Source: a virus
Taxonomy: Duplodnaviria; Heunggongvirae; Uroviricota; Caudoviricetes; Demerecviridae
Direction: 5' to 3' (one strand)
Virus record (IMG/VR): IMGVR_UViG_2974604416_000001
Span: 1-64,000 of that record
Length of the DNA stretch: 64,000 bases
Shown: positions 15,181-63,841 of the stretch, one piece after another
Layout of the letters: the number at the start of each line of letters is the position of its first letter
How positions within the stretch are numbered: position 1 is the stretch's first letter
The notes under the pieces: generated by a model
The model's input: only the letters and a program-made list of their open reading frames with translations
What the model was told of the DNA's origin: nothing
Database searches by the model: none
Program-made: the position numbers and the translations under genes

Positions 15181-15206
15181 AAAAAAGCTGGCCGAAGCCA
15201 GCTCAT
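15181..15206 (-). terminator. rho-independent terminator
   Basis: aaaaaa-gctggc-cgaa-gccagc hairpin with the T-run on the minus strand. Confidence 0.5.
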
Positions 15207-34355: not shown

Positions 34356-35220
34356 CTACTTGGAGTAGGTTCTGAGAACTATTGGAATCATCACGTTCTC
34401 TTCTTTCGGGATTACAACATTCTTGCTGAACCACCCTGGGAATAAAACATGCTTACCGTCTTTACGGATTAGTGTACCACTAAGACCTAGCTTAATACCA
34501 GCGAAACTATGTACTAGTACTTTTTCAAAGGTGGACGCTGGGCAATGATGTACTTCATCCATAATCAGTAAACCAAACTCTCTACATAAGGATTGGGCAT
34601 GCTTCTGTACGGTTTGTATGTTACCAATTACTATAGGGGTAGAGGTATCTACCTGACCACCCCCGATTATAGAAGGTGTAAAGCCAAAATGTTTCCTAAC
34701 TTCTTGCACCCACATATCTCGAATATCCGTAGTCGTGGTGACTACCAGCGTCTTTAGCTGCAATTTGTGGGCTATAGCCAGCTAAGTAATAGTTTTACCA
34801 AACCCAGGTATTGCGTTAATAATCCCATTTAGCTAAAATCCCCCTATTTTAGGGTAACTAAGGAACTATTCCATAGCCATATCCTGAGATTCCCTCAACA
34901 CAAATAGAGGGTCTGGTATTTTCTACGGAACCTTAGAAGTTCTGTCTACAAACTCAAACTGACAACCCTAACCTGTTACCCGTTTGCACATACCAATGAT
35001 GGTATCTATGTGTCCCGAAGGGAAGGAATAGGCCTGTTTAGCTGTTGATATAGTCTTAATCTGGAGCTAGATTGGTTGAAACTTCTGATTAGGGCTTTGT
35101 TTAGGTAAAATAAACGTAAGAAGCTCTACCTATTGCTGGTGTTCTTCTGGCGTAAGCCGCATATATACTTGGTCTGATATAACCACCTTTCGTGGCTAGC
35201 TTAAAGCTTCTTTCTACGTG
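34356..35220 (-). CDS. SF2 (DExH) helicase, with at least 4 in-frame TAG in the N-terminal region
   Basis: Walker A IPGFGKTIT and DEVHH (DExH) motif; frame continues upstream through TAG at 34782-34784, 34833-34835, 34866-34868 and 34923-34925; 5' boundary uncertain. Confidence 0.5.
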
Positions 35221-35227
35221 AACAATT

Positions 35228-35482
35228 CTACGTGTCTCCAAAATCTAAAGGCATGTAACACATTGCCCCTAGTTTAACTAGGTAAACATATAAGTAGCCC
35301 CTAGAAGCAACTACACGTTCTAGGCCTCCCTCTGGGAGTTTGTACCACATTTCTACCCTGCTATCTTCTAGTTGGTTTGCCTTTATAATTTTAGCTGGCA
35401 CTACATCATAGTAGGTACTTTTTACCCACTTAAACACCCTGCCTTGGTTATTTATAAAGTTTAGCGTTCCACTATTAGCCAA
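35228..35482 (-). CDS. hypothetical protein
   Basis: 84-aa ORF. Confidence 0.35.
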   Translation of the reverse strand: MANSGTLNFINNQGRVFKWVKSTYYDVVPAKIIKANQLEDSRVEMWYKLPEGGLERVVASRGYLYVYLVKLGAMCYMPLDFGDT

Positions 35483-39002: not shown

Positions 39003-39267
39003 ATTACCTCACTTTCCAATATTATACACCTAAAAAGGCCTGTGATCAAGATTTATAACAAAAAAGGAGATGATTTTACTCATCTCCTTGTTCTTCTTGC
39101 GGCACTTTGACTATGCTTTGCGGGATAATTTTCATGTAGTCCCACGACATATGGGTCACGAAGTTGATACCTGCTGGGAGGTTACGCAACTTAGCTACTG
39201 TAAGTGTCAGAACTGAGCCAGATTTATTAATGGTGAACTACATATCCACCTAGTCTAACAAACCTTT

Positions 39268-40434
39268 CTACATACGAGTGGCTCCGTTTTCATCTACTTG
39301 ATACGGTGAAATAACCAGAACTTTCTGCTTCCTGGCTATTGTGTTCTTAAGCATAGTTGCTAACTGTGTTTGAACTTTCCAATCCAGCCTATCCAGAGTT
39401 TTTACGCCCTCAAGTATAAGCTGGTTTACATAGTCAACAATTACCGTGGTTACTAGTCCAGGGTATTTTGCCTTTAGTGTCGTTAGTACTAAATCAATGG
39501 TGGAGATTTTTAGGTTCCTATCATCAATTACTACTATCGGTAAAATCTGTTTTAGGTGTTGCTTGAAATACGTTTCGTGGCTTTGGAATAGGTCTCTCGT
39601 AGGAGGCTCTTCTAGTGCTTTTAGTTGATCCATTAAGTAATCAAAACCACCTTCGTACTGTGCGGCTTGGGAAAGCTACAACTGTACTTGTTCAAAGTGG
39701 TTCATAGTACCATTACGTAGTGCAGAGAATCTGACACCACTGGCAGTCTACCAAAATCTCTGGTATGTTTCCTCAGCAGTCATTTCGATAGTACAGTACG
39801 GGGCTATTTTACCAACCATCCAATGGTGGGCACAGATGTTAATACAAAGTGCTGATTTACCAACTCCTCGATATCCACCTAGAAGAATAAGCTCTTCTTC
39901 CTTACCTCCCAGAAACTCCATATCCCAGCGCTCTGATAACCCAAGGGTTGAGAACTAGGTTTGGGTTTCTTCCTCCGCACGAAACATTGAAATTTCGTTA
40001 CCGTAGAATACTTTGTCAGAACTGTCTATCTCCTCTTCCACTAGCATCTAAATAGCCTAGAGTTCTTCCACTATCTCCTGTGGCCCTAACAAGGGTAAGT
40101 TGTCTGCAAACTTGTCTAACTTCTCGATAGCGATATGCTGGATGTGCTCGGCTTCTAGTTGCTCCAACTATAGTGAGATTGGTACGTCCGGTAGCTCCAC
40201 CTTTTCAAGTGCTAGTACCTAATGCAGGACGGAAGAGTTTCTGGAGTTAAACAGCTTTAACTCTTCAAAAGATGGGACTCTGGCATGTGCTTCGTAGAAG
40301 TTATTTACTGATCGATATACGCTGGAGAATAGGCCCGAGAAGTACTACGATTTCAGCTTTTCCATCTAAGCTAGCTTTTGCTCCTAGTCTGTAGACTATA
40401 GCAAAAGCCCTAGAGTTGTGCTTTGTAGTGACAT
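39268..40434 (-). CDS. DnaB-like replicative helicase (about 11 in-frame TAG)
   Basis: Walker A GYRGVGKSALCI and H3-like VIVDYVNQLIL; start ATG at 40434 with an AAGGAGC RBS. Confidence 0.55.
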
Positions 40435-51608: not shown

Positions 51609-53609
51609 ATGTTAAAATAGGGTTCACTTCAAAAGAGTAATGGCCGCCTTGAGCAGTGGGATGATTCCAAGCTGATTAAGGCAGTTAATAAAGCTGCGGC
51701 AAGGGCTGGGGAGACTATTGACTTCGATAAGCTAATTCCGCTGGTAAATAAGAGCACTTCTGTTAGTGAGTTGTACCATAAACTGATGGTTGCCTTGCAG
51801 CTATTGGGATATGAAAAAACCGCAGAAAGCTACTCGCAGTACCGCTCCTACAAGAAGGAGTTTGGTGGACTGCTAATGGAAGTCTGGGAAAAGACACAGA
51901 AAGCACTGGCATATGGGGACAAGAGCAATGCGAACGTTGATTCGCTAATTATCAGCTCTAAGCAGTCCTTGGTGCGTGGGTACGTGAGTAAGGAGCTGTA
52001 TAAGCACAACTTCCTGACCGTAGATGAACAAGAAGCCATTCAGGACGGGTATATTTACATTCACGACCTAGACCAGTTGCTTTACCCGCAAATTAATTGC
52101 TGCTTGTTCGACATAGGCGCTGTAATGCGTGGTGGCTTTGAAATGGCCAATACGAAGTACACAGAACCTCAGTCACTGAGGACTGCCCTACAGCTTATCT
52201 CGGATATTATCCTGTGTGCTAGCTCACAGCAGTTTGGTGGATTTACTGTGCCGGAGCTGGATAAAATACTAGTTCCGTACTACGAAAGGTCTCTGGACAA
52301 GCACTTAGTTGATGCCTATACCTGGAACATCCAAGACGCCTACTCCTATGCAGTAGAGAAAACTGAGGACGAATTAAAGCAAGGTTTGCAGGCTCTTAGC
52401 TTGAAAACTAACACAATCCCGTCCTCTCGTGGTGACTTCGCGTTTACTACAGTAACTTTTGGGTTGCTTGACGACCCAGAAACTGCGGGAACTCAAAAGA
52501 ATATTGCCAAGGCCATCCTCAGAGACAGAATGTCTTATGATACTCCACCTGTTTTCCCTAAGCTGGTGTATCTATACAACGAAGAGACTGACCAAGAAGA
52601 TTTGTTTGACCTAGCTATTGAGTGTTCGTGCCGATGCCTATATCCTGACTTCCTAAGCTTGAGTGGTGAAGGTTATGTACCGGATATGTACCGTAAGCAT
52701 GGTAAAGCTATCAGCCCAATGGGTTGTCGTGCTTTCCTATCCGAAGGTTGTGGTAGCTTTGTTGGTCGCGCTAATATCGGTGCAGTATCACTTAACTTGC
52801 CGATGATTTACATGAAAGAAGGGGATTTCTGGGAGAACCTTCGTTTCTACATGGAAATGATTAGAACTCTTCACAAGAAGCGCTATGAGTACCTGGCCAA
52901 GGCCCCCTGTTCCACAAACCCGCTGGCATTCACTCAAGGTGGTTTGATGGGTGGCACAAAGCAGCCAGACGAACCTATTGGTGACATTGTGAAAAATTTC
53001 ACAGCGAGCTTTGGTATCACAGCTCTCAACGAACTAAATATGTTGAAAGAAGGGAAACCTCTACACGAATCAGAGGGCAGCTTTGTTAATGAGGTGCTAG
53101 GTTTTATCAATAATCTAATTACCGAGTACAAAGAAGCAGATGAAAATCTCTACGCGCTGTATGCTACCCCAGCTGAGAGCTTGTGTGGGACTCAAGTACA
53201 ACAGTTTAGGAACAAGTATGGTATTATTGCTGGGGTTTCTGATAGAGAGTACTTTTCTAATAGTTTCCACATGCACGTATCTGCTGAAATCAGTCCGTTC
53301 CGTAAGCAGGATTTAGAGTACCAGTTCTTCCACCAAGTAACGGGTGGCCGGATTCAATATACTCGTCTAGACACGGATAAGCCAAACGTTGTTAAAGGGG
53401 TTATCCTACGTGGCATGATGCTAGGATTCTATTCCGGTGTAAATGGAAACAAGTGCTTCTGCCAAGACTGCGCCCACAACGCTAATTACGAAATGCTAGA
53501 GTGTGACAAGTGTGGTAGCACTAACATTGCCCAAATTGACCGGGTATGTGGCTACCTGGGATTTACCAGAGTATCTGGGGACACACGCATGAATAAAGCA
53601 AAACTTTAG
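51609..53609 (+). CDS. nrdD: anaerobic ribonucleoside-triphosphate reductase (in-frame TAG at codon 4)
   Basis: ATP-cone N-terminus; glycyl-radical motif RVCGYLGF; C-terminal zinc ribbon CDKCGS; frame from the ATG at 51609 reads M-L-K-TAG-G-S-L-Q... then the 612-aa tracked ORF. Confidence 0.75.
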
Positions 53610-53635
53610 GAGATTAAAGATAGGAGAAGTATGTA

Positions 53636-53960
53636 ATGTTGTTATAGAAACAGCCAATCGGATATTTTGAGGATGGTATGATTACCATCCTATTATTTGC
53701 GGGAGAAGGTAGGCCCCCCAGGTCTTATGCTCCTTTATCTAGGGAGGAAGTCTAGAGACTACTTGAATTCCCTAAAACTACGTCATTGCATTTGTACAAC
53801 GTAACAGAGACAAACATAGAGGAGGTGATAGCCTTGCTTCGTTTTATAAAATCTCTTTACAACACACCCATTTTTTGTTATCATGATTATGAACTATCAG
53901 AGGGCTCTAGATTGACGTTGGATGCCCTAGCCAATAAGTTAATTATGACAGGAGCAATAA
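53636..53960 (+). CDS. hypothetical protein (TAG-containing)
   Basis: plus-strand frame MLL-TAG-KQPIGYFEDGMITILLFAGEG... ending in TGA at about 53958; lacks an NrdG-type cysteine cluster. Confidence 0.25.
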
Positions 53961-53961
53961 A

Positions 53962-54441
53962 ATGAAATCAATCGTACTTCTTTTAGGACTAATCTCAGCT
54001 TCAGCTTTTGCTAGCCCAGTAGGTTTAGTTTATTACCCACAACAGCAAGGTGTACAAGCAATCTATGACAACTTCTACGTCGGGTATGCTGGCAAGGGCC
54101 GTGATGACACCACAGTAATCGTAAAAGAAAACTATGGCGTCACACAAGACCAAACCTATATCTCTACTGAACGTGAGTGGTTTGACTACAATGTTCAAGT
54201 AGGTATGGTTGGGTATACAGATTATAAGGTGTACCCATTCGCAGGTCTTACCTATAGCAATGACCGTAGTAATGAGGTAATCACCATTGATTCCCAGCAC
54301 TACGCAACCTATGACCATAGTGACCACACTGTTGGGTTTGAAGCAGGTTTGCTTTACGAGTTCTACCCACACGCATTGGCGGGTTTGAAATTCTCCACCC
54401 AGTATGAGACGGTGCATTTCGGACTTGGGGTTAAGTTTTAA
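53962..54441 (+). CDS. Lom/Ail/OmpX-family outer membrane beta-barrel protein
   Basis: signal peptide MKSIVLLLGLISASAFA, alternating aromatic beta-strand pattern and C-terminal ...GVKF; strong RBS. Confidence 0.6.
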   Translation: MKSIVLLLGLISASAFASPVGLVYYPQQQGVQAIYDNFYVGYAGKGRDDTTVIVKENYGVTQDQTYISTEREWFDYNVQVGMVGYTDYKVYPFAGLTYSNDRSNEVITIDSQHYATYDHSDHTVGFEAGLLYEFYPHALAGLKFSTQYETVHFGLGVKF

Positions 54442-54444
54442 TCA

Positions 54445-54476
54445 AGGGAGCCTCAGGGCTCCCTTTGTTTTTGGAG
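54445..54476 (+). terminator. rho-independent terminator
   Basis: agggagcc-tca-gggctccct followed by ttgttttt. Confidence 0.6.
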
Positions 54477-54483
54477 AGAATAT

Positions 54484-56652
54484 ATGCCTATTTATGTTGG
54501 CAACACTGGGGCCTAGAAAATATTAGGTCTAACAAAAACCTCCCAGGATTAGTGGAACGTAAAGCCAGATACTATATTCCACTCCTCCCTGCCGTATGTA
54601 GAAGTAATCGAGCATTATATGCCTGTTGCGTATAAACACTAGGCTGCACCTTATGACTATTTAGTAAAAGATTATAACCCAGACTACTGGGGGACAGTAA
54701 CAGTATATGACTGGTTCAATTACTACAATTACGCACCAATAAATGGAAATAAATATCATAATATTCATTACTATGAATAGGTGCTTACCGATTAGGTAAA
54801 ATCATTCCTTAGGTACACAAATAATTAGTACATACTAATTTATCACTTGAGCAACGGTGCCCAAGTGATGATGCCATAGCATAATTCTGATATAAAGACC
54901 ACCCATAAAGGGGACTTGCAATACCTAGACTAGACAGAAGGTAACATATAGACCCCCAACTAGGGGTATAGGTCTAGAATGGATCAACTCAAAGCTATTG
55001 ATAGTCCGTGGGACTTAACTGGGTACCAAGACGTATATTGGTTTCAGTACGCCTTTGTACAGCCTTCTGCAAGCGGAGTTGTTACAACCACTAATGGTAT
55101 AGTAAGCACTCTTGATATCACTGTTACTGGTATTACTATCCTGCAGTTAGTAGGTCTTAACCTAGTCTAGGCAACTCCAGGAGCTAACCCGCTGTCTACG
55201 TAGCCACTGAACCCTTAGCAGCAAGGGGCCGTTCTTATATCAAGAGATTCCTTGAACATTTAGGGAGTTGAGTATAAGAACAAAAAGTTTCTGCAAGTGC
55301 TTACTAACCCCATTACTACTACAGGTAGTTAGGCTGTAAACGTCTCTACTTAGAACTTATAGGTTACAAATCTGTACGCCTCTTCTCCCAGCTTCCAATG
55401 GGGGACTAGACTAGACTATCTAGCTAAATATCGTGACGGGGGCTTCATGAACGTAGATATAACCTAGGGTTCTTCACAGTACACCTTAATAAACTATCCT
55501 CTGGGGCAGGAGTGGTACTCTAATGTCCCTGCTGTAGGTGCTTGGGGCGTGCTGCCAGGCAATAATATGACAACATATAGTGGGGCTGTGCCAGGGTACT
55601 GGCCTTATAGTTTTTATGGTGGTGCGTCAGTTGGGGTTAATTCTTGGAAAGGTAGTATTAGGAAACCCAAAGAGCTTATTTAGCAGTCTTGGTAGCACAC
55701 CTTTACTAGACTTAGCTAGACCGATACCTGGACTCTAGGTCAGTACTTTAACCAAGGGCTAGCAAATCGCCTTGGTTCTGAGGTTCAATACTTCTAGGGC
55801 GTGTAGATTACCTCTCTAAGTAAGTAGTAGGGTATTGCGTTTGATAGTTCACACCCTAGCATCAATTAGGGTGCCCAATATAAGATGTTCTCGCCAGATT
55901 CGCAAATGGTTGCAAGAATTGGTAAAACATACGCAGCAGCTATCCCACAAGATACCTTTAGCGGGTCACCCTACTATTCTGGGACACGGAATTTTCCGTA
56001 GTACGAAGATGATATTCTTGTATCAATAATTGATTTGGGGTAGGAAGAGCAGTAGACCAACAACTTCTTCCTAACATCCTACATTCAAGACCAAGATTTA
56101 ATTAACCTGTCCTATGCTAATACCTTGAGGTTTATTGTATCGGGTGGCGTTATCTCATACCAAGAGAATAACTTTAACCCAAGCTACAACATACCTAAGT
56201 AGTGCTTATTCTATAGATAGCCGTATGATGGGGTTGGTGGGCAATGGTACAAGTCTGTGCAAGCCAATAATGGTTCCCCTGTATAGTTTGGTTATCCAAA
56301 TTGGTACTACAGCAACTACGACTTACCTACAGATATGATAGGATTCCCTTTCCAATCAAACCATATACGTAATAGGTAGGTTTCTGTGGTAAGCTTGCCA
56401 GTAGGTGCACAATATATCTTGAAAGAAGAGCTGAATCCACAGTCAAGCTACGCGTGGAACGGGCCAGACCAAGTTAGGGGGGTACGAAGCTCTATCTAGT
56501 ATCTTCGTAGAATCTCATAGTCCAGAATTGAGGTGCGCCTCAACGTACATAAGACACAGTAGCACAGTAGGTTCTCTAATGGTGGGTATCTTGGTTTCGG
56601 TACTTTTGGGTCTAGCGTAGTTCAAAACTTCTAGATATGCCCTATACTGTAA
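54484..56652 (+). CDS. large Tyr/Gly/Asn-rich protein, 723 codons with about 50 in-frame TAG (fiber/OMP-like?)
   Basis: the frame from the ATG at 54484 to the TAA at 56650 contains no TAA or TGA but many TAG; the tracked 63-aa ORF 54979-55170 is an internal TAG-free piece of this same frame. Confidence 0.4.
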
Positions 56653-58759: not shown

Positions 58760-58848
58760 GGATGTTTTGAGCAGTATGGTGAGCTTCAGCGGGCTGTAAC
58801 CCCGTGGTCTCTAGGGGCCTGTAGGTTCGAATCCTACAACATCCACCA
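58760..58848 (+). tRNA. tRNA-Tyr(GUA), class II
   Basis: acceptor GGATGTT/AACATCC, anticodon loop CUGUAAC, T-arm GTAGGTTCGAATCCTAC, encoded CCA. Confidence 0.6.
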
Positions 58849-58854
58849 ATTTCT

Positions 58855-58940
58855 GGAGGTTTTGAGCAGTATGGTGAGCTCAGGTGGCTGTAACCCACTA
58901 ACTTCTACGTTTATAGGTTCGAATCCTATAACCTCCACCA
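58855..58940 (+). tRNA. tRNA-Tyr(GUA) second copy, class II
   Basis: acceptor GGAGGTT/AACCTCC, loop CUGUAAC, encoded CCA. Confidence 0.55.
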
Positions 58941-58945
58941 ATTTC

Positions 58946-59062
58946 TGGACTTGTAGCGACAACGGCTCGATAGGCGTACCCTGTGTGCGGAGTAATCTGT
59001 AATCACTATCAGGTAAAATCCCTATGGAGCGGTGACTGGTTGGAATCCAGTATAGTCCACCA
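58946..59062 (+). ncRNA. 117-nt tRNA-like element (T-arm + acceptor + CCA, no resolvable cloverleaf)
   Basis: 3' end ACTGG-TTGGAAT-CCAGT ATAGTCC A CCA and 5' GGACTTG; the interior does not fold as a standard D/anticodon arm. Confidence 0.3.
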
Positions 59063-59069
59063 ACTTAAT

Positions 59070-59144
59070 ATTGGCGTGTTCTAACGGTAAGATGCAGGTC
59101 TCCAAAACCTTGCGATGAGGGTTCGAATCCTTCCGCCTTTGCCA
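59070..59144 (+). tRNA. tRNA-Trp(CCA) with two U:U mismatches in the acceptor stem
   Basis: anticodon loop CUCCAAA identical to E. coli tRNA-Trp; discriminator G; CCA encoded. Confidence 0.5.
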
Positions 59145-59152
59145 ATTTTTAT

Positions 59153-59228
59153 AGACCGCTAACTTAATGGTTAGAGTACCCGCCTCTTAAGCGGAAGGTT
59201 CTGAGTTCGAGTCTCAGGCGGTCTACCA
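59153..59228 (+). tRNA. tRNA-Lys(CUU)
   Basis: acceptor AGACCGC/GCGGTCT; loop CUCUUAA. Confidence 0.55.
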
Positions 59229-59235
59229 ATTTAAT

Positions 59236-59309
59236 GCTCGGTTATTTTAACGGGAGAATCCTTCCCTTACAAGGAAGAGGAGTTGGTTCGATTCCAACAC
59301 CGAGTACCA
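59236..59309 (+). tRNA. tRNA-Val(UAC)
   Basis: anticodon stem CTTCC/GGAAG; loop CUUACAA. Confidence 0.6.
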
Positions 59310-59315
59310 GTTAGT

Positions 59316-59391
59316 TGAGACGTTGTGTAATTGGTTAGCACATGTGACTTTGACTCACATAGTTAGGGTTCGAGCCCCTACGTCTCTGCCA
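59316..59391 (+). tRNA. tRNA-Gln(UUG)
   Basis: anticodon stem TGTGA/TCACA; loop CUUUGAC; 1:72 U:U mismatch. Confidence 0.55.
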
Positions 59392-59397
59392 ATTTAA

Positions 59398-59472
59398 GGT
59401 CAGGTAGACTAAGTTAAGTCACTAGGGATCATGCACCTAGGAATGCTGGTTAAAGTCCAGTCATGACCACCA
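59398..59472 (+). tRNA. aberrant tRNA with a 9-nt anticodon loop (GAUCAUGCA; CAU core) and a TTAAAGT T-loop
   Basis: normal acceptor, D-stem GACT/AGTC and anticodon stem CTAGG/CCTAG, but the loop is 9 nt. Confidence 0.4.
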
Positions 59473-59477
59473 ATTTT

Positions 59478-59553
59478 GGATAGTAAGCACATGAGGATGT
59501 GCGGTAGGCCGTTAACCTACAGGTAGAAGGTTCGAATCCTTCACTATCCGCCA
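59478..59553 (+). tRNA. tRNA-Asn(GUU)-like (loop CCGUUAA, C33)
   Basis: acceptor GGATAGT/ACTATCC; anticodon stem GTAGG/CCTAC. Confidence 0.5.
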
Positions 59554-59558
59554 ATTTT

Positions 59559-59635
59559 GGGTTAGAAGCACATATGGTATGTGCGGTCGCCTGTTAAGCG
59601 AATGGTAGAAGGTTCGAATCCTTCCTGGCCCGCCA
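59559..59635 (+). tRNA. tRNA-Asn(GUU)
   Basis: loop CUGUUAA; paralog of the previous tRNA with a different acceptor stem. Confidence 0.55.
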
Positions 59636-59649
59636 AATTAAAATAAATA

Positions 59650-59678
59650 TTGCTATCAAGCCAATAACTTGATATAAT
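59650..59678 (+). promoter_or_regulatory. sigma70-type promoter
   Basis: TTGCTA, 17 nt, TATAAT. Confidence 0.55.
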
Positions 59679-59703
59679 ATTCACAGAAATTGAGGAAAAG
59701 CTA

Positions 59704-59883
59704 ATGAGCAAAGTTTGCAGGTTAGGTGAGAGTAAGGCTCTCAACGTGGCTAAGCGACGTAATCTACGTAAGAAGATGCGTGAGCTAATTAACCAGCACG
59801 TTCAGCCAGAAATGCAAGCAGAGTTTCACACGGCCTTCAATAAAGTATGTGAGGCTTACTGCCTAAGTTTAATGCGTCACTAA
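59704..59883 (+). CDS. small basic protein (59 aa)
   Basis: GAGGAAAAG RBS plus ATG; the 3' end overlaps the 5' acceptor strand of the next tRNA. Confidence 0.3.
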   Translation: MSKVCRLGESKALNVAKRRNLRKKMRELINQHVQPEMQAEFHTAFNKVCEAYCLSLMRH

Positions 59884-59951
59884 TTCAATTGGTTTAGAAT
59901 ATCCGGCTTTTAACCGGAAGGTTGTAGGTTCGAGTCCTACGTGGCGTACCA
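59874..59951 (+). tRNA. tRNA-Lys(UUU)
   Basis: anticodon stem TCCGG/CCGGA; loop CUUUUAA. Confidence 0.6.
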
Positions 59952-60007
59952 TTTAACAAACTGTGAAGGTAGTACAGGACTTAATGTCGGGAATCCTTCT
60001 GGTTTAT

Positions 60008-60082
60008 GCTCCTATCGACTAGCGGTTAGGTCACTACCCTTTCAAGGTAGTAACATGGGTTCGAATCCCATTAGGAGTACCA
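60008..60082 (+). tRNA. tRNA-Glu(UUC)
   Basis: anticodon stem CTACC/GGTAG; loop CUUUCAA. Confidence 0.6.
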
Positions 60083-60169
60083 AACTCTCCCTTGCAGTCT
60101 ACGGACGCTATGGGTTTTTGGAGCACGCAAGGCTCTGCCCAATGTAAAGTCGCCTTGCAACAATTCTAC

Positions 60170-60244
60170 GCTCTGTTAGTTTAATGGAAAGAACACTTCG
60201 CTACGGACGAAGAGATCTGGGTTCGATTCCTAGACGGAGTACCA
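60170..60244 (+). tRNA. tRNA-Arg(ACG)
   Basis: anticodon stem CTTCG/CGAAG; loop CUACGGA. Confidence 0.6.
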
Positions 60245-60549
60245 CTTTTGCCTTGGCCGGCAATAAGTCTAGCTAGTAGACTATAACAGCAAGCACGGTT
60301 ATGGGCCGTATAGCTCATGCGTCCAGCAACTCGACGTAAAATAGGAGCCCTCTTGTTGATTATTGGTATAATCATCCGGAAATAGCCTAACCGTTAGAAA
60401 GGCTGGCCTGTTCCCTCTGACAATGTCAGGTGGAAGTATCTCTTAGATGTCCAGAGCGGATCCCGTTGGGTTGATGCGTGTGTCGGTCTAATTCATACAA
60501 GCCATCAGGATTAGCCATCCATAGAGGGGTTTTTAAAGCGTTTTCTGGC
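60245..60549 (+). ncRNA. 305-nt non-coding spacer inside the tRNA operon (candidate structured RNA)
   Basis: no ORF, no tRNA fold; lies between tRNA-Arg and tRNA-His. Confidence 0.2.
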
Positions 60550-60626
60550 GTGGGCATAGGTTATGTCAGGTTAAACTCCACGTTGTGACCGTGGGAAAAT
60601 GGGTTCAAATCCCATTGCTCACCCCA
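60550..60626 (+). tRNA. tRNA-His(GUG)
   Basis: anticodon stem CCACG/CGTGG; loop UUGUGAC; discriminator C73; T-arm ATGGGTTCAAATCCCAT. Confidence 0.6.
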
Positions 60627-60647
60627 GAGAACGTTTTAAAATAATGA

Positions 60648-60676
60648 TTGCTGTCAAGTCAATAACTTGATATAAT
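60648..60676 (+). promoter_or_regulatory. sigma70-type promoter immediately upstream of the suppressor tRNA
   Basis: TTGCTG, 17 nt, TATAAT; near-identical to the 59650 promoter. Confidence 0.55.
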
Positions 60677-60690
60677 ATTTACATAAATTC

Positions 60691-60765
60691 GGGGATGTAG
60701 CTCAATGGGAGAGCAGCGGACTCTAAATTCGCCGGTTGTGGGTTCGAGTCCCATCATCTCCACCA
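60691..60765 (+). tRNA. amber suppressor tRNA, anticodon CUA, with alanine identity elements (G3:U70, A73)
   Basis: GGGGATG-TA-GCTC-AATGGGA-GAGC-A-GCGGA-CUCUAAA-TTCGC-CGGTT-GTGGG-TTCGAGT-CCCAT-CATCTCC-A-CCA; anticodon C60723 U60724 A60725; the acceptor closely resembles the adjacent tRNA-Ala. Confidence 0.75.
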
Positions 60766-60771
60766 AATTTA

Positions 60772-60845
60772 GGGGAATTAGTGATAATGGTAGCACTTCT
60801 GCCTTGCACGCAGAAAGCGAGGGTTCGATTCCCTCATTCTCCACC
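60772..60845 (+). tRNA. tRNA-Ala(UGC)
   Basis: acceptor GGGGAAT/ATTCTCC with G3:U70; loop CUUGCAC; A73. Confidence 0.65.
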
Positions 60846-60854
60846 AATTTCATT

Positions 60855-60929
60855 CTCTGGGTAGGCAAGTGGTATGTCGTCTGGTTTGGGGCCAGAAAGT
60901 CGAGTGTTCGATTCACTCTCCAGAGACCA
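60855..60929 (+). tRNA. tRNA-Pro(UGG)
   Basis: anticodon stem TCTGG/CCAGA; loop UUUGGGG. Confidence 0.55.
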
Positions 60930-60953
60930 ATCTTCTTAGTAAGGATTCTTAGT

Positions 60954-61154
60954 ATGAGAAATAAAACTAAGATGTTTATTACAAAACATCGAGGTGAACA
61001 GTATATTCAGAAAACTGGAACCTTAAATTTTATATCTCTAAAAGACGGAAGTATGATTCCTGGGGACGTAGCCGAAGAATTGGATAGACTGAATAAGTTT
61101 AAACGTGATTTCGGGTCAGAAACTGGATGGAAGTTCATCTTTACTATACCTTAA
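60954..61154 (+). CDS. small protein (66 aa) inside the tRNA array
   Basis: TAAGGA RBS plus ATG. Confidence 0.35.
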   Translation: MRNKTKMFITKHRGEQYIQKTGTLNFISLKDGSMIPGDVAEELDRLNKFKRDFGSETGWKFIFTIP

Positions 61155-61157
61155 TTG

Positions 61158-61233
61158 ACGCGCTTGGGAGGTAAGGTATCTCACTGGTCTCATAAGCCAG
61201 TAGAAGTGGGTTCGATTCCCACTTGCGCAACCA
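61158..61233 (+). tRNA. tRNA-Met/Ile2-like (CAU) with a poorly paired acceptor stem
   Basis: anticodon stem CTGGT/GCCAG; loop CUCAUAA; standard T-arm and CCA. Confidence 0.4.
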
Positions 61234-61420
61234 AATTAGTGCCTTGTACTTTTCCTGCTTGGCATTAGTAACCTTGAGCTTACAAGGTAAAAGAAAGCCT
61301 GTTCAGGCAATCCACTTTCCCTGTTAAATAAGGTGGATATTGGTAGTAGAAATGTGTGAGACCGTCAGAGGGCACTACCCTTCCTCTGTCCCCGTATTAA
61401 GGTAAGCGGGCCAAATTAAT
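61234..61420 (+). ncRNA. 187-nt non-coding spacer (candidate structured RNA)
   Basis: several inverted repeats (for example ccttgta...tacaagg); no ORF and no tRNA fold. Confidence 0.2.
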
Positions 61421-61497
61421 GCTCTCGTGATGGAATTGGCATACATACTACGCTTAGAACGTAGGTTCTGTGGGTTCGAGTCCCACCGAGAGTACCA
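61421..61497 (+). tRNA. tRNA with Leu anticodon UAG but a class I (short) variable arm
   Basis: anticodon stem CTACG/CGTAG; loop CUUAGAA; 5-nt variable loop. Confidence 0.5.
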
Positions 61498-61503
61498 AAT
61501 TAT

Positions 61504-61581
61504 AGAGGGGTAGCTCCAAGTGGTTAGAGCATTCGTTTCATACGCGAACGCGTGTCGGTTCGATTCCGACTCCCTCTACCA
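61504..61581 (+). tRNA. tRNA with a compressed anticodon arm (stem TTCG/CGAA, loop UUUCAUA or 5-nt UUCAU)
   Basis: normal acceptor, D and T arms; the anticodon arm is 2 nt short; anticodon ambiguous (CAU or UCA). Confidence 0.35.
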
Positions 61582-61597
61582 AATTATGTATTGAGTA

Positions 61598-61669
61598 GTT
61601 GCTGTAGTTCAGTAGGTAGAACAGCCCTCTCATCGGGGTACGTCGAAGGTTCGAATCCTTCCAGCAGAT
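61598..61669 (+). tRNA. tRNA-like gene, irregular anticodon arm, no encoded CCA
   Basis: D-arm TAGTTCAGTAGGTAGAAC and T-arm GAAGGTTCGAATCCTTC present. Confidence 0.3.
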
Positions 61670-61963
61670 AATCTCAATATGTGATAACACAACTGAATGT
61701 GGGTTCGACTCCCATCTCTGGCAATCCCAGGGTAGCCTTAATGGTAAAGGCAGAGGTTGTGGTGCCAAAGTCGGGCACAGAAAAACAGACTAATAAATAC
61801 AGAGTTGGCCGCTGCCACTGCCCTGTCACGTCAGGGACTACTAAAAACGTAGAACCCTTCAGCAAGGTTCCCTCTCTGTATAACGCGCGCAATACTTGAG
61901 CCTTGCAAGTATAAAGAAAGGCAGCTAATAAGTGCTTTCCAAAGAGAGTATTTATTAGTTAAT

Positions 61964-62040
61964 GGGGAAATGACGGAACTGGCATACGTGTCATCTTCAA
62001 ACGGTGAATTTTCTGGGTTCGACTCCCAGTTTCCCTACCA
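61964..62040 (+). tRNA. tRNA with Leu anticodon CAA but a class I variable arm
   Basis: anticodon stem TCATC/GGTGA; loop UUCAAAC; acceptor GGGGAAA/TTTCCCT. Confidence 0.5.
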
Positions 62041-62124
62041 AAATTAGTACTACCTTGGGAGAATGCGTTTCGGTACCGAGGCAAAATTCAAGAGTGGGAT
62101 TAAAGGCCCTTTTGGTAGTACTTT

Positions 62125-62199
62125 GGAGCTGTAGCTGAAATGGATTAGTACGTGGTTGAAACCCACGGGATGTTGGATCGTTACCAACCGGCTCCACCA
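62125..62199 (+). tRNA. tRNA-Phe(GAA)
   Basis: anticodon stem CGTGG/CCACG; loop UUGAAAC. Confidence 0.55.
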
Positions 62200-62206
62200 A
62201 ATTAAT

Positions 62207-62281
62207 GCGGCTATAGTGTTAATGGTAACACGAGACCTTGCCAAGGTTTAATTATCGGTTCGAGTCCGATTAGTCGCTCCA
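62207..62281 (+). tRNA. tRNA-Gly(GCC)
   Basis: loop UUGCCAA; discriminator U. Confidence 0.6.
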
Positions 62282-62286
62282 ATTAC

Positions 62287-62360
62287 GCAGTTAAGCACGA
62301 GGTGTGTCGCCGGCCTTCCAAGCCGCGCAGAGTAGGGTTCGATTCCCTCTAGCTGCTCCA
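62287..62360 (+). tRNA. tRNA-Gly(UCC)
   Basis: loop CUUCCAA; discriminator U. Confidence 0.5.
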
Positions 62361-62440
62361 ATTTGGTTCCCTCGAAGCTGGGACGTAAGCACAAGATTAA
62401 ATCGGAAGCCTTTAACGTCTTGTGGCCAAAAACTAATTAT

Positions 62441-62515
62441 GGGGCTATAGTATAATGGCTATTATCGGTCACTGTCTATGACAAGATGAGGGTTCGATTC
62501 CCTCTAGTCCCGCCA
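62441..62515 (+). tRNA. tRNA-Asp(GUC)-like
   Basis: loop CUGUCUA. Confidence 0.45.
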
Positions 62516-62521
62516 AATTCC

Positions 62522-62597
62522 GGTTCCATCGTTTATGTGGATAAGATACCTCCCTGTCACGGAGGAGTACAGGGTTCGAACCCCTGTGGAACCGCCA
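62522..62597 (+). tRNA. tRNA-Asp(GUC)
   Basis: anticodon stem CCTCC/GGAGG; loop CUGUCAC. Confidence 0.6.
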
Positions 62598-62604
62598 AAT
62601 TAAT

Positions 62605-62680
62605 GCTTCCATCGACTAAGCGGTTAGGTCGTCAGACTTTCAATCTGAAAATGCGAGTTCGATCCTCGCTGGAAGTACCA
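62605..62680 (+). tRNA. tRNA-Glu(UUC) second copy
   Basis: anticodon stem TCAGA/TCTGA; loop CUUUCAA. Confidence 0.55.
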
Positions 62681-62923
62681 AATTCAGAGCGCAGGCAATA
62701 GGGACTCCGGTGCGGTGGTTGCCAATAGTTACGCAGCGACGAGTGAGACCTCTGAATAAAAAGCAACCTGGCCCTCTCCCAGCAATGGTGATGGAGCTTC
62801 CTTTCCTGTAACAAGGTTCCAGTCCGCGACGGGTAAAAGGTTACATACAGACAATATAAGACCTGAGCTTACAGGTGAAAGGGAGATTGGGTTTGTCTTT
62901 CAACCGTACCTCCCAAGTATTTT
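62681..62923 (+). ncRNA. 243-nt non-coding spacer (candidate structured RNA)
   Basis: inverted repeats ttcagag...ctctgaa; no tRNA fold. Confidence 0.2.
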
Positions 62924-62999
62924 GCTAGGTTCGTACAGCAGGTTAGTACAGACGGCTGATAACCGTCAGACACAGGTTCGAGTCCTGTACCTAGTACCA
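62924..62999 (+). tRNA. tRNA-Ile(GAU)
   Basis: anticodon stem GACGG/CCGTC; loop CUGAUAA. Confidence 0.6.
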
Positions 63000-63005
63000 A
63001 TTTAT

Positions 63006-63081
63006 AGTGTGTTAGCTCAGTAGGTAGAGCAGGCTCTTGATAAGGGTCAGGTCACTGGTTCAAATCCAGTACGCACTACCA
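63006..63081 (+). tRNA. tRNA-Ile(GAU) second copy
   Basis: loop UUGAUAA. Confidence 0.55.
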
Positions 63082-63085
63082 ATTT

Positions 63086-63160
63086 GTTTGGTTAGTTTAA
63101 TAGGCAAAACACCGCCTTGGTAAGGCGGAATCGCAGGTTCGACTCCTGCACTGAACACCA
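63086..63160 (+). tRNA. tRNA-Thr(GGU)
   Basis: anticodon stem CCGCC/GGCGG; loop UUGGUAA. Confidence 0.6.
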
Positions 63161-63332
63161 GAAGTGCATTCAAGCCTATGAGAGTTATATGCTTGTAAAT
63201 ATCTCTTGTAACTCCCAGTTAGAAAGAGTACCCTAGCTGGTAAAACTAGAAGGTATCCCGCTGCGCGTACTAACCGCCAAGTTGTAAGAACTAAGTAGTT
63301 AGTAGGGTTGAAAGGGCAACCCACTCATTTTT

Positions 63333-63407
63333 GCTCCTAAAGCATTGCTGGCGATGCAGTTGCCTTGTAAGCATCTGAACTAGGTTCGATTCCTAGTGGG
63401 AGCACCA
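63333..63407 (+). tRNA. tRNA-Thr(UGU)
   Basis: loop CUUGUAA. Confidence 0.55.
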
Positions 63408-63413
63408 ATTTAC

Positions 63414-63504
63414 GGAAGATTAGTCTAATGGTAAGGCAGCTGTTTGCTAAACAGTCGGACACCTAAGTAGGGTCTTACAGGTTCGAGTCCTGTATCTTCC
63501 ACCA
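63414..63504 (+). tRNA. tRNA-Ser(GCU), class II
   Basis: loop UUGCUAA; long variable arm. Confidence 0.6.
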
Positions 63505-63519
63505 ATTTCTGGAGTGTTG

Positions 63520-63750
63520 ATGAACTACGCCAAGAAAATTGCTAAAAAGCAAGAAAAGATTAGCAAACTCCAGCTAGAACTAGCGCAGCTAGTTATGGAG
63601 TTTCAAGATTCCTGTACACATACATATGTTCCAGTAAGGCACTGGGATGACGATGATGGGTACTCTAAGCGTCTTTGCACTCACTACACTGAGTTTAGAT
63701 GTGTTCATTGTAAGCACACAACCGTAGAGGCTAAGACCTTTAATAGTTAA
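63520..63750 (+). CDS. small zinc-ribbon protein (76 aa)
   Basis: GGAG RBS plus ATG; CTH...CVHCKH cluster. Confidence 0.4.
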   Translation: MNYAKKIAKKQEKISKLQLELAQLVMEFQDSCTHTYVPVRHWDDDDGYSKRLCTHYTEFRCVHCKHTTVEAKTFNS

Positions 63751-63751
63751 T

Positions 63752-63841
63752 AGAAGGTTCGCATAATGGTATTGCAGCAGCTTGGAAAGCTGTAGACACC
63801 TAAGTAGGGTCTTGTGGGTTCGAGTCCCACACCTTCTGCCA
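63752..63841 (+). tRNA. tRNA-Ser(GGA), class II
   Basis: anticodon stem GCAGC/GCTGT; loop UUGGAAA; long variable arm shared with tRNA-Ser(GCU). Confidence 0.55.

What the first reader, a model, noticed from the sequence alone, without database searches (positions are those of the whole stretch)
54484..56652. 723-codon plus-strand ORF with about 50 in-frame TAG codons
The frame from ATG 54484 to TAA 56650 contains no TAA or TGA. About 7 percent of its codons are TAG, so amber here is as frequent as a common amino acid. GCN-encoded Ala is only about 4 percent in this protein, against 7 to 8 percent in TAG-free genes such as the polymerase and NAMPT. Counting TAG as Ala restores a normal Ala content, whereas counting it as Leu, Ser or Gln would give implausible excesses. 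The product is Tyr/Gly/Asn/Trp-rich (fiber or outer-membrane-like) and follows a Lom/Ail-like OMP gene.
Basis: seen in the sequence. Interest (0 to 1): 0.8.

Follow-up and report, generated by a model that had tools for sequence, protein, structure and literature searches.

The report
Phage gene reading TAG as alanine
A tail receptor-binding gene of a cultured T5-like Aeromonas phage carries 37 in-frame TAG "stop" codons that the phage almost certainly reads as alanine using its own tRNA, and I found no earlier description of a stop-to-alanine code change in phages.

Summary
The window is nt 1-64000 of Aeromonas phage AhSzw-1 (Demerecviridae, Shenzhenvirus). The ORF at 54484-56652 is real. It has 722 sense codons, no TAA or TGA before the final TAA, and 37 in-frame TAG (5.1%), not the ~50 (7%) reported.

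TAG is a sense codon across the genome: 579 in-frame TAG in nt 1-114000. GenBank/RefSeq annotate with code 11, so many genes are fragmented. Cook et al. 2024 list the genome only as predicted "table 15" (TAG=Gln).

Three lines of evidence point to alanine instead:
- In alignments to the non-recoded phages T5 and pVp-1, Ala is the top residue under TAG. It holds 39 of the 75 TAG columns where both references agree, against Gln 3. The log-likelihood gap is 47-59 nats over Ser and 81-108 over Gln.
- The phage tRNA(CUA) at 60691-60765 has G3:U70, A73 and a G1-G4 acceptor stem. It is 100% identical in three phages of the genus.
- GCN-coded Ala is the only amino acid depleted in TAG-rich genes.

TAG is absent from pre-early genes and the polymerase. 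It is dense in tail, terminase and lysis genes.

This is a new variant (TAG to Ala) of known phage stop-codon recoding. Proteomic confirmation is lacking.

The parts
54484..56652 (+). Gene for a pb5-type receptor-binding tail protein. It has 722 sense codons and 37 in-frame TAG, ends in TAA, and 55% of its inferred Ala codons are TAG.

Orthologues:
- They occur in TS3, Akh-2 and metagenomic loci L014-L018.
- All carry 20-43 in-frame TAG and no TAA or TGA.

Link to T5 pb5:
- Foldseek also ranks pb5 first.
- hhalign matches the N-terminal 46 residues to T5 pb5 at E 4e-5.
54444..54472 (+). Intrinsic-terminator-like hairpin (9 bp, 6 G-C pairs) plus a T tract, between the upstream OMP-like gene and the target ORF.
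   Evidence: Found by the terminator scan and visible in the sequence.
54473..54478 (+). GGAGAG Shine-Dalgarno sequence, 5 nt upstream of ATG 54484.
   Evidence: Read from the sequence. Orthologues start at the same MP(I/V/F)(Y/F)xG.
53962..54441 (+). TAG-free gene of 159 aa with a signal peptide and a C-terminal ...GLGVKF, resembling a small outer-membrane beta-barrel. It sits immediately upstream of the RBP gene in every relative.
   Evidence: Translations are and synteny. The L014 homologue hits PF13505 OMP_b-brl at E 3e-4, below the cut-off.
60691..60765 (+). Suppressor tRNA with anticodon CUA and alanine identity elements (G1:C72, G2:C71, G3:U70, G4:C69, A73, G20). It has a 5-nt variable loop and an encoded CCA end.
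   Evidence: ARAGORN calls it 'Pyl' from the anticodon only. It has the best Rfam tRNA score in the array, 69.5 bits.

The sequence is 100% identical in AhSzw-1, TS3 and Akh-2. A divergent copy in L014 keeps G3:U70 and A73.
60772..60846 (+). Ordinary tRNA-Ala(UGC), 6 nt downstream of the suppressor tRNA.
58760..63841 (+). Array of 31 tRNA genes that contains the suppressor.
51609..53636 (+). NrdD gene. The in-frame TAG at 53607-53609 aligns with Ala in a relative, and GenBank wrongly ends the CDS at that TAG.
   Evidence: AhSzw-1 reads ...NKAKL[TAG]EIKDRRSM* and L014 reads ...NKAKLAEIKDRRSM*.
33792..35273 (-). D10-type helicase gene with 16 in-frame TAG. One follows the Walker A motif: GKTIT[TAG]LAIAH, against GKTILALALA in both T5 and pVp-1.
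29834..32086 (-). NrdA gene with 8 in-frame TAG. GenBank annotates it as three fragments.
   Evidence: The TS3 orthologue has no TAG.
39076..40434 (-). D6 DnaB-like helicase gene with 14 in-frame TAG.
23507..24340 (-). Holin gene with 16 in-frame TAG (5.8% of codons).
   Evidence: It hits phrog_860 (holin) at E 8.9e-34 when TAG is translated as Ala, and it has a T5 holin homologue.
11349..11834 (-). Rz-like spanin gene with 9 in-frame TAG.
   Evidence: It hits phrog_739 and phrog_89.
15203..15829 (-). ORF with the highest TAG density in the window (18 in 208 codons). With TAG read as Ala it is a multi-pass membrane protein.
   Evidence: It matches no family.

Best explanation
The ORF is the receptor-binding tail protein (pb5 type) of Aeromonas phage AhSzw-1, a T5-like phage whose genus has reassigned the amber codon UAG to alanine.

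Proposed mechanism:
1. The phage encodes, inside its early tRNA array, a tRNA with anticodon CUA whose acceptor stem carries the universal alanine identity mark G3:U70, plus A73.
2. Alanyl-tRNA synthetase does not read the anticodon, so the host enzyme charges this tRNA with Ala. This step is inferred.
3. The charged tRNA inserts Ala at UAG. TAA and TGA remain the only stops.

UAG supplies about 20% of all alanine codons. It is absent from pre-early genes and several early genes (A1, dmp, polymerase, ligase, origin helicase, NAMPT). It is rare in the most abundant virion proteins. It is dense in tail, terminase and lysis genes. Full-length products of those genes can therefore be made only once the suppressor tRNA has accumulated. 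Whether this acts as a timing or safety device, and how host RF1 is outcompeted, are both inferred or unknown.
For: TAG is read as sense:
- The ORF has 37 TAG and no TAA or TGA in 722 codons, a run with probability about 8e-11 by chance.
- There are 579 in-frame TAG over nt 1-114000, spread evenly along the ORFs.
- Code-11 annotation fragments NrdA, portal, terminase and the tape-measure gene.
- Sequence downstream of a TAG is conserved.
- Orthologues of the ORF in 7 other phages or contigs all carry TAG but no TAA or TGA.

TAG is Ala:
- Residues aligned to TAG in T5 are 65/252 Ala, and in pVp-1 64/248 Ala, a 3.6-fold enrichment.
- A self-calibrated log-likelihood puts Ala 47-59 nats ahead of Ser and 81-108 ahead of Gln.
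- In columns where T5 and pVp-1 agree, TAG columns split Ala 39, Ser 11, Gln 3 out of 75. Genuine GCN codons give 219/365 Ala.
- Motif examples: GKTIT[TAG]L against GKTILAL; RLLFT[TAG]DWH against RLLFSADWH; KMNSK[TAG]LFIST against KPNSKALFIST; NrdD KAKL[TAG]EIKDRRSM against KAKLAEIKDRRSM.
- Within the genus, GCT, which differs from TAG at all 3 bases, is the commonest codon exchanged with TAG in both directions.
- In TAG-rich genes GCN-Ala is 6.0% against 7.4% in homologues, while Gln and Ser are already at par.

The tRNA:
- It has G1:C72, G2:C71, G3:U70, G4:C69, A73 and G20, with no long variable arm.
- It is identical in three phages whose tRNA-Ala(UGC) genes differ from one another.
- A divergent copy in L014 keeps G3:U70 and A73.
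- The T5 record notes that T5 tRNA-Ala given an amber anticodon is an effective suppressor.

Function of the product:
- The N-terminal domain is shared with pb5.
- Precomputed Pfam PF26860 Phage_T5_RBP5 hits, marked weak or faint, occur on two orthologues.
Against: - No proteomic or aminoacylation data exist. Charging by AlaRS is inferred from identity elements established in E. coli.
- Ser is over-represented under TAG: 11/75 conserved columns, against 22/365 for GCN.
- Gln exchanges with TAG within the genus more often than it does with GCN. Single-step mutational neighbours TCG and CAG can explain both, but some mischarging or mixed decoding is not excluded.
- Inside this particular ORF, columns are too variable to show a clean Ala signal.
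- Substituting 8 different residues at the 15 TAG of TerL changed PHROG scores by only a few bits. Ala was best on phrog_2 (145.6 against 142.7 for Gln) but not on two smaller families.
- With 37-84 TAG per gene, near-complete suppression is required, and nothing in the annotation explains how host RF1 is neutralised.
Confidence: 0.85

Rival explanations
1. TAG is read as glutamine (NCBI table 15), as in crAss-like and other recoded phages. This is what Prodigal-gv and public protein databases assumed for this clade.
For: - Every previously described phage TAG reassignment is to Gln (Borges preprint; PMC9523058 abstract).
- Cook et al. list the genome as table 15.
- Database proteins P0001-P0008 carry Q at the TAG positions.
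- TAG exchanges with CAG/CAA moderately often within the genus: 18 and 30 cases.
- Amber-anticodon tRNAs can be recognised by GlnRS (general knowledge).
Against: - Gln holds only 3 of 75 conserved TAG columns, and the Gln model is 81-108 nats worse than Ala.
- Gln content already equals that of homologues without TAG. Adding TAG would double it to 7.5%.
- The tRNA has G1:C72, G3:U70 and A73, rather than the GlnRS acceptor determinants U1:A72, G3:C70 and G73 (determinants from general knowledge).
- Table 15 is one of only two alternative codes named in that paper's results (4 and 15), and no TAG=Ala table exists to predict. The label is therefore not evidence about the amino acid.
Confidence: 0.04
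2. TAG is decoded ambiguously or as another small residue (mainly Ser), or as a mixture of Ala with Gln or Ser because the suppressor is mischarged.
For: - Ser is the second residue in every tally: 29/252, 25/248 and 11/75.
- Ser is enriched 1.7-fold under TAG.
- GCN+TAG slightly overshoots the Ala content of homologues, 9.6% against 7.4%.
Against: - The tRNA has a 5-nt variable loop, so it lacks the long arm that SerRS, LeuRS and bacterial TyrRS require (requirement from general knowledge).
- TCG (Ser) is a one-step neighbour of both GCG and TAG, so a Ser excess is expected on the mutational path.
- Ser content is already at par with homologues.
- The Ser model is 47-59 nats worse than Ala.
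Confidence: 0.08
3. The TAGs are genuine stops. The region would then be a decayed pseudogene, a set of small genes, or an assembly artefact, as the GenBank annotation implies with one 63-aa CDS at 54979-55170.
For: GenBank/RefSeq annotate only fragments here. The host uses the standard code.
Against: - The frame has no TAA or TGA in 736 codons, p about 8e-11.
- The full-length frame, its start and its C-terminal ...CPIL are conserved in independently sequenced phages and metagenomes.
- The fold matches pb5 along about 300 residues spanning many TAGs.
- The same pattern affects essential genes such as terminase, portal and the helicases.
Confidence: 0.01

Closest known systems
TAG-recoded phages using 'code 15' (crAss-like, Lak and other gut phage clades; Borges et al., Peters et al. 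2022)
   Same: - In-frame TAG occurs in many genes of a phage whose host uses the standard code.
- The phage encodes its own tRNA(CUA).
- Recoding is concentrated in late, structural and lysis genes and absent from the earliest genes.
- Standard-code annotation gives low coding density: 55.8% rising to 82.7% with recoding-aware gene calling, in the Cook et al. supplement.
   Different: - The inferred amino acid is Ala, not Gln. Borges et al. state that they observed only TAG to Gln and TGA to Trp in phages whose code differs from their host's.
- The proposed charging enzyme is AlaRS, recognising G3:U70, rather than GlnRS.
- The phage is a cultured, lytic T5-like siphovirus of a gammaproteobacterium, not an uncultured gut phage.
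Alanine amber-suppressor tRNAs (engineered E. coli tRNA-Ala(CUA); T5 tRNA-Ala with an amber anticodon)
   Same: G3:U70 and A73 are in the acceptor stem and the anticodon is CUA. AlaRS ignores the anticodon, so such tRNAs insert Ala at UAG. The T5 record notes its tRNA-Ala becomes an effective amber suppressor. The E. coli tRNA-Ala sequence used for comparison was verified.
   Different: Those tRNAs are laboratory constructs. This one is natural and under strong purifying selection: it is identical in three phages. It serves about 580 codons per genome. Overall similarity to tRNA-Ala genes is only 68-76%, barely above that to other tRNAs, so descent from tRNA-Ala is not proven.
Sense-codon reassignments to alanine through tRNAs that acquired G3:U70 (CUG to Ala in Pachysolen, from general knowledge; putative CGG to Ala in Clostridia, bioRxiv 10.64898/2026.04.02.715157)
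   Same: The route is the same: a tRNA with a non-alanine anticodon carries G3:U70 and is captured by AlaRS.
   Different: Those cases reassign sense codons in cellular genomes. This case reassigns a stop codon in a virus whose host keeps UAG as a stop.
UAG to Ala in some chlorophycean mitochondria (recalled from memory; not checked here)
   Same: The codon and the amino acid are the same.
   Different: That is an organellar code shared by the whole translation system. Here the code applies only to phage genes in an infected standard-code cell.
T5 receptor-binding protein pb5 (oad) with its adjacent receptor-blocking gene llp
   Same: - The N-terminal about 45 residues are conserved.
- The sizes are similar, 722 against 640 aa.
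- A small secreted envelope protein gene lies next to it.
   Different: - Sequence identity is about 12% outside the N-terminus.
- The gene lies after nrdD, not beside the terminase genes.
- The neighbour is an OMP-barrel-like protein, not a lipoprotein.
- The receptor is unknown.

Membership tests
Stop-codon-recoded phage (TAG sense) | Many in-frame TAG in conserved, essential genes; reading TAG as sense restores full-length ORFs | tested here: met
   There are 579 in-frame TAG. TerL, portal, NrdA, the helicases and tail genes are restored to T5-like lengths.
Stop-codon-recoded phage (TAG sense) | Phage-encoded suppressor tRNA with anticodon CUA | tested here: met
   The tRNA is at 60691-60765. 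It is also present in TS3, Akh-2 and L014.
Stop-codon-recoded phage (TAG sense) | Recoded codon enriched in late or lysis genes and avoided in the earliest genes | tested here: met
   A1, dmp, pol, ligase and NAMPT have 0 TAG. Holin has 5.8%, spanin 5.6%, tail proteins 3.6-5.2% and this ORF 5.1%. Temporal classes are inferred from T5 orthology.
NCBI translation table 15 (TAG = Gln) | TAG positions correspond to glutamine | tested here: not met
   Gln holds 3 of 75 conserved columns. Ala holds 39 of 75 and is favoured by 81-108 nats.
tRNA-Ala (substrate of AlaRS) | G3:U70 wobble pair in the acceptor stem | tested here: met
   The acceptor stem reads GGGGAUG/CAUCUCC, giving G3:U70.
tRNA-Ala (substrate of AlaRS) | Supporting elements A73, G2:C71, G4:C69 and G20 | tested here: met
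   All are present by position. The element list is the E. coli one, from general knowledge.
tRNA-Ala (substrate of AlaRS) | Actual aminoacylation with alanine | not testable with these tools
   This needs in vitro charging or tRNA mass spectrometry.
tRNA-Pyl (the ARAGORN label) | Atypical pylT architecture (no G18G19 or T-Psi-C motif, 3-nt variable loop) together with pylS/pylBCD genes | tested here: not met
   The tRNA is a canonical cloverleaf with GG in the D loop, GGTTCGAGTCC in the T arm and a 5-nt variable loop. It has the best Rfam tRNA score in the array. No pyl genes are annotated, but I did not search for them specifically.
T5 pb5 receptor-binding protein (PF26860) | pb5 fold | tested here: met
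   [not shown]
T5 pb5 receptor-binding protein (PF26860) | Sequence match to the family profile | tested here: inconclusive
   Only the N-terminal 46 residues align to T5 pb5 (hhalign E 4e-5, probability 70%). Precomputed PF26860 hits on orthologues are weak or faint. The local Pfam copy gave no hit even for T5 pb5 itself.
T5 pb5 receptor-binding protein (PF26860) | Binds the host outer-membrane receptor at the tail tip | not testable with these tools
   This needs adsorption or binding assays.
Demerecviridae (T5-like phages) | Shared core gene set with T5 | tested here: met
   48 genes have T5 homologues, including pre-early A1 and dmp, the D-series replication genes and pb2/pb3/pb4. The record taxonomy agrees.

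The most novel reading that the evidence does not exclude
Shenzhenvirus phages (AhSzw-1, AhSzq-1, AhP_Mru1, TS3, Akh-2 and metagenomic relatives) use a genetic code not previously described for any virus or bacterium: UAG = alanine. The code is implemented by a phage tRNA that hijacks the host AlaRS through G3:U70. Because these phages are cultured and lytic on a tractable host, this would be the first experimentally accessible system in which a phage imposes a stop-to-alanine code on a standard-code cell. It should also reveal how RF1 is overcome at 40-80 consecutive UAGs per gene.
Probability: 0.65. Interest if true: 0.85.

Novelty: new variant of a known kind. Interest (0 to 1): 0.75.

Why it matters
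**Annotation.** Every public annotation of this phage genus is wrong.
- GenBank and RefSeq fragment roughly a third of the genes.
- Recoding-aware pipelines and protein databases put Gln at about 580 positions per genome where Ala is expected.
- Because AhSzw-1 and Akh-2 are proposed aquaculture therapeutics, their receptor-binding protein, holin and tail genes have effectively never been annotated.

**Code evolution.** Phage stop-codon recoding would not be limited to the Gln and Trp routes. Borges et al. argued that only GlnRS and TrpRS were susceptible to this kind of hijack. AlaRS, which is blind to the anticodon, is an obvious third route and here appears to be used.

**Experimental access.** The system is cultured. 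The amino acid identity, the timing model for recoded late and lysis genes, and the unsolved question of how RF1 is outcompeted can all be tested directly.

**Synthetic biology.** A natural, highly efficient Ala amber suppressor, and whatever anti-RF1 function accompanies it, would be of interest.

Tried and rejected
- **Pfam and PHROGs on the ORF (TAG as Ala).** No hits.
- **PDB sequence search with the family profile.** Nothing relevant.
- **First AF2 model from a 4-sequence alignment.** Unusable, pLDDT 32.
- **pVp-1_0034 as a positional homologue.** Rejected: it is NrdD. pVp-1_0137 shows no convincing profile match.
- **Column analysis inside the RBP family alone.** The family is too divergent. 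Unanimous non-TAG columns split A/Y/T/G/P one each.
- **PHROG bit-score test with 8 residues substituted at the 15 TAG of TerL.**
  - The first run used too strict a threshold and returned nothing.
  - The rerun had low power. On phrog_2 Ala was best (145.6 bits, against Gln 142.7 and Lys 142.2).
  - On phrog_5653 and phrog_10250 Lys and Gln were slightly better.
  - I treat the result as inconclusive.
- **Overall tRNA similarity as evidence of descent from tRNA-Ala.** Only weakly discriminating: 76% to pVp-1 tRNA-Ala against 74% to a tRNA-Arg.
- **Scan of viral contigs for the suppressor tRNA pattern.** No matches.
- **The genome-wide composition argument on its own.** Weak: GCN is 7.2% in TAG-rich genes and 7.5% in TAG-free genes. 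It becomes informative only when normalised to homologues.
- **Literature searches for TAG or UAG to alanine in phages.** Nothing found. Papers on Aeromonas phages do not mention recoding.
Full report
**Identity of the window**

Megablast of 47040-56652 matches Aeromonas phage AhSzw-1 (MG676225 / NC_047950) at 100% identity and at the same coordinates. The fetched record pieces are identical to the window. AhSzw-1 is a cultured T5-like siphovirus of 115,739 bp (Demerecviridae, Shenzhenvirus) that infects Aeromonas hydrophila.

**The observation**

- Translation of 54484-56652 gives 722 sense codons and a terminal TAA.
- There are 37 in-frame TAG, 0 TGA and no other TAA.
- With TAA and TGA as the only stops, the frame opens at 54442.
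- TAA+TGA make up 3.1% of codons in the plus-strand frames, so a 736-codon run without either has probability about 8e-11.
- A terminator-like hairpin (54444-54465) with a T tract, and a GGAGAG ribosome-binding site, precede ATG 54484.

**TAG is a sense codon throughout the genome**

- Calling ORFs with only TAA and TGA as stops over nt 1-114000 gives T5-sized genes and 579 in-frame TAG. These are spread roughly evenly along the ORFs.
This follows from the calling rule.
- The GenBank/RefSeq annotation uses code 11. It splits NrdA into three pieces, portal and the tape-measure gene into two each, and reduces TerL to 69 aa. In the target region it annotates only a 63-aa fragment.
- All relatives fetched or seen (TS3, Akh-2, the metagenomic contig L014) carry a tRNA(CUA) and show the same fragmentation.
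- Cook et al. 2024 (PMC11210395) list MG676224 and MG676225 in a supplementary table as predicted "table 15". Coding capacity there rises from 55.8% to 82.7%. The recoding has therefore been flagged computationally, but only as table 15, which assumes Gln.

**Which amino acid: alignments to non-recoded phages**

I aligned all AhSzw-1 ORFs, with TAG written as X, to six-frame ORFs of two non-recoded Demerecviridae: T5 (L008-L010) and Vibrio phage pVp-1 (L011-L013).

| Tally (true genes only) | Ala | Ser | Gln |
|---|---|---|---|
| T5 residues opposite TAG (n = 252) | 65 | 29 | 14 (of 267 in the unrestricted tally) |
| pVp-1 residues opposite TAG (n = 248) | 64 | 25 | 13 |
| TAG columns where T5 and pVp-1 agree (n = 75) | 39 | 11 | 3 |

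- Ala is enriched 3.6-fold under TAG.
- I built a self-calibrated likelihood from P(homologue residue | AhSzw-1 residue), estimated on the same alignments. It puts Ala ahead of Ser by 47-59 nats and ahead of Gln by 81-108 nats.
- As controls for the agreement columns, genuine GCN codons give 219/365 Ala, Gln codons 79/153 Gln and Ser codons 182/324 Ser.
- Examples in conserved motifs:
  - D10 helicase: GKTIT[TAG]LAIAH against GKTILALALA.
  - SbcD: RLLFT[TAG]DWHIK against RLLFSADWHIK.
  - TerL: KMNSK[TAG]LFIST against KPNSKALFIST.
  - Portal: VP[TAG]NI[TAG]GSGTG against IPANVAGSATG.
- In the window, NrdD ends ...NKAKL[TAG]EIKDRRSM*, while the relative L014 has ...NKAKLAEIKDRRSM*. GenBank stops NrdD at that TAG.

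**Which amino acid: comparison within the genus**

Comparing AhSzw-1 with TS3 gives 164 shared TAG. Otherwise Ala is the top partner in both directions (41 and 61). The single commonest exchanged codon is GCT, which differs from TAG at all three bases.

**Which amino acid: composition**

- In TAG-rich genes GCN-Ala is 6.0%, against 7.3-7.5% Ala in the homologues. In TAG-free genes AhSzw-1 has more Ala than its homologues (7.9-8.4% against 6.8-7.2%).
- Gln and Ser already match the homologues without TAG.

**The tRNA**

- The tRNA at 60691-60765 is GGGGAUGUAGCUCAAUGGGAGAGCAGCGGACUCUAAAUUCGCCGGUUGUGGGUUCGAGUCCCAUCAUCUCCACCA.
- The acceptor stem pairs G1:C72, G2:C71, G3:U70, G4:C69, A5:U68, U6:A67 and G7:C66. 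The discriminator is A73, CCA is encoded, G20 is present and the variable loop is 5 nt.
- This is the full E. coli AlaRS identity set (general knowledge).
- It lacks the long arm needed by SerRS, LeuRS and TyrRS, and the U1:A72, G3:C70 and G73 used by GlnRS.
- ARAGORN's "Pyl" label reflects only the anticodon. The tRNA has the best Rfam tRNA score in the array, 69.5 bits.
- It is 100% identical in AhSzw-1, TS3 and Akh-2, while the adjacent tRNA-Ala(UGC) genes differ among them.
- The divergent suppressor in L014 changes pairs 5-7 of the acceptor stem but keeps G1-G4, G3:U70 and A73.
- The T5 record notes that T5 tRNA-Ala with an amber anticodon is an effective suppressor.
- Overall similarity to tRNA-Ala genes (68-76%) is not much above similarity to other tRNAs. 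The argument therefore rests on identity elements, not on ancestry.

**What the ORF encodes**

- Homologues are few: P0001-P0008. All are code-15 translations, Gln-rich and Ala-poor, of recoded relatives.
- Their loci show conserved synteny: nrdD, then a small OMP-like gene, then this gene.
- The N-terminal 46 residues align to T5 pb5 (hhalign E 4e-5).
- Two non-recoded proteins, P0010 and P0011, share only that N-terminal domain with the family, and match the T5 pb5 N-terminus by BLASTP at about 1e-5.
- No pb5 homologue sits beside the terminase genes as it does in T5.
- I conclude that the ORF is the receptor-binding protein, relocated relative to T5.
- The upstream 159-aa protein has a signal peptide and a C-terminal Phe, typical of outer-membrane barrels. 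By analogy with T5 llp next to oad, it may mask the receptor. This is speculation.

**Distribution of TAG and likely logic**

| Gene class | TAG content |
|---|---|
| A1, dmp (pre-early in T5), DNA polymerase, both ligase subunits, origin helicase, NAMPT | 0 |
| Major capsid protein | 0.4% |
| Tail tube | 0.8% |
| NrdA, NrdB, primase | 1-2% |
| Helicases, SbcC, terminase, pb3, pb4 | 3-4% |
| Tape measure, tail fibre, holin, spanin, this RBP | 5-6% |

- This ORF has the highest TAG share of inferred Ala codons, 55%.
- The pattern matches the model proposed for code-15 phages: late and lysis genes are untranslatable until the phage suppressor is expressed. Avoidance of TAG in the most abundant proteins suggests suppression has a cost.
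- How RF1 is outcompeted over 37-84 TAG per gene is unknown. No release factor or aaRS is annotated.

**Caveats**

- There are no protein-level data.
- Ser is over-represented under TAG, and Gln is over-represented in within-genus exchanges. TCG and CAG are one-step neighbours of TAG, which can explain this, but mixed decoding is not excluded.
- Inside this ORF the columns are too variable for a clean signal. Only motif columns show TAG aligned to GCN, for example SLSK[TAG][TAG]GIAF against SLSKAAG, plus the columns numbered 22, 126, 508-509, 522, 588 and 764 in the alignment.
- The PHROG substitution test was inconclusive.

**Novelty**

- Borges et al. state that they saw only TAG to Gln and TGA to Trp in phages whose code differs from their host's.
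- Full-text searches for TAG or UAG to alanine in phages found nothing.
- A 2026 preprint reports a putative CGG to Ala reassignment through a G3:U70 tRNA in bacteria, which is the same capture mechanism applied to a sense codon.
- Papers on these Aeromonas phages, including a 2026 review, do not mention recoding.
- I rate this a new variant (UAG to Ala) of a known phenomenon, in a cultured and testable system.

Noticed in passing
window 53962-54441 (+); homologues at L014 9517-9981, L015 316-828, L017 3480-3989 and L018 38-550: A TAG-free gene of 159 aa encodes a protein with a signal peptide that ends in ...GLGVKF, like a small outer-membrane beta-barrel. It always lies immediately upstream of the RBP gene and is separated from it by a terminator. 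It may be a receptor-masking or superinfection-exclusion partner, analogous to T5 llp beside oad.
   Followed up: partly
window 23507-24340 (-) and 11349-11834 (-): The lysis genes are among the most TAG-dense genes. The holin has 16 TAG in 277 codons and the Rz-like spanin has 9 in 161. Neither is annotated in GenBank.
   Followed up: partly
window 15203-15829 (-): This unannotated ORF has the highest TAG density in the window, 18 in 208 codons. With TAG read as Ala it is a multi-pass membrane protein with Ala-rich hydrophobic segments. It matches no family.
   Followed up: partly
window 61597-61670 (+): A tRNA-like gene with an 8-bp acceptor stem and a 6-nt anticodon loop. ARAGORN labels it 'tRNA-?(SeC|Met)(ca)', and Rfam scores it 43.6 bits as a tRNA. 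L014 has a comparable odd tRNA, '(Stop|Val)(ta)', at 17703-17777.
   Followed up: partly
window 59398-59469 (+): Rfam reports a tRNA hit (41.1 bits) that ARAGORN does not call, even when the region is scanned alone.
   Followed up: partly
L005 18298-18372 (TS3), L007 12328-12402 (Akh-2), L014 15459-15532: By a simple acceptor-stem parse, the phage tRNA-Trp(CCA) genes of these relatives also show G3:U70, here with G73. So does the TS3 tRNA-Cys. Whether AlaRS mischarges them is unknown.
   Followed up: no
window 29834-32086 (-) compared with TS3 40411-42660 in L004: NrdA has 8 TAG and NrdB 4 TAG in AhSzw-1, but both are TAG-free in TS3. Most of these TAG positions align with variable residues in TS3 (E, S, T, G, I, R, P), and one in each gene aligns with Ala. 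TAG therefore appears to be still spreading into early genes along different lineages.
   Followed up: partly
window 9553-10464 (-) and 10473-10868 (-): An annotated RNA ligase sits next to an AAA_33 kinase-like protein. Together they could form a tRNA-repair pair.
   Followed up: no
public protein databases: P0001-P0008: Metagenome and Logan gene calls for this phage clade are stored as code-15 translations. They carry Gln at every TAG, giving 7.6-10% Gln in most of them (5.6% in P0002) and 3-6% Ala. These are probably systematic mistranslations.
   Followed up: yes
window 8355-9215 (-): A TAG-free 286-aa protein carries an SPFH/Band 7 domain (E 3e-13). GenBank annotates it as hypothetical.
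   Followed up: no
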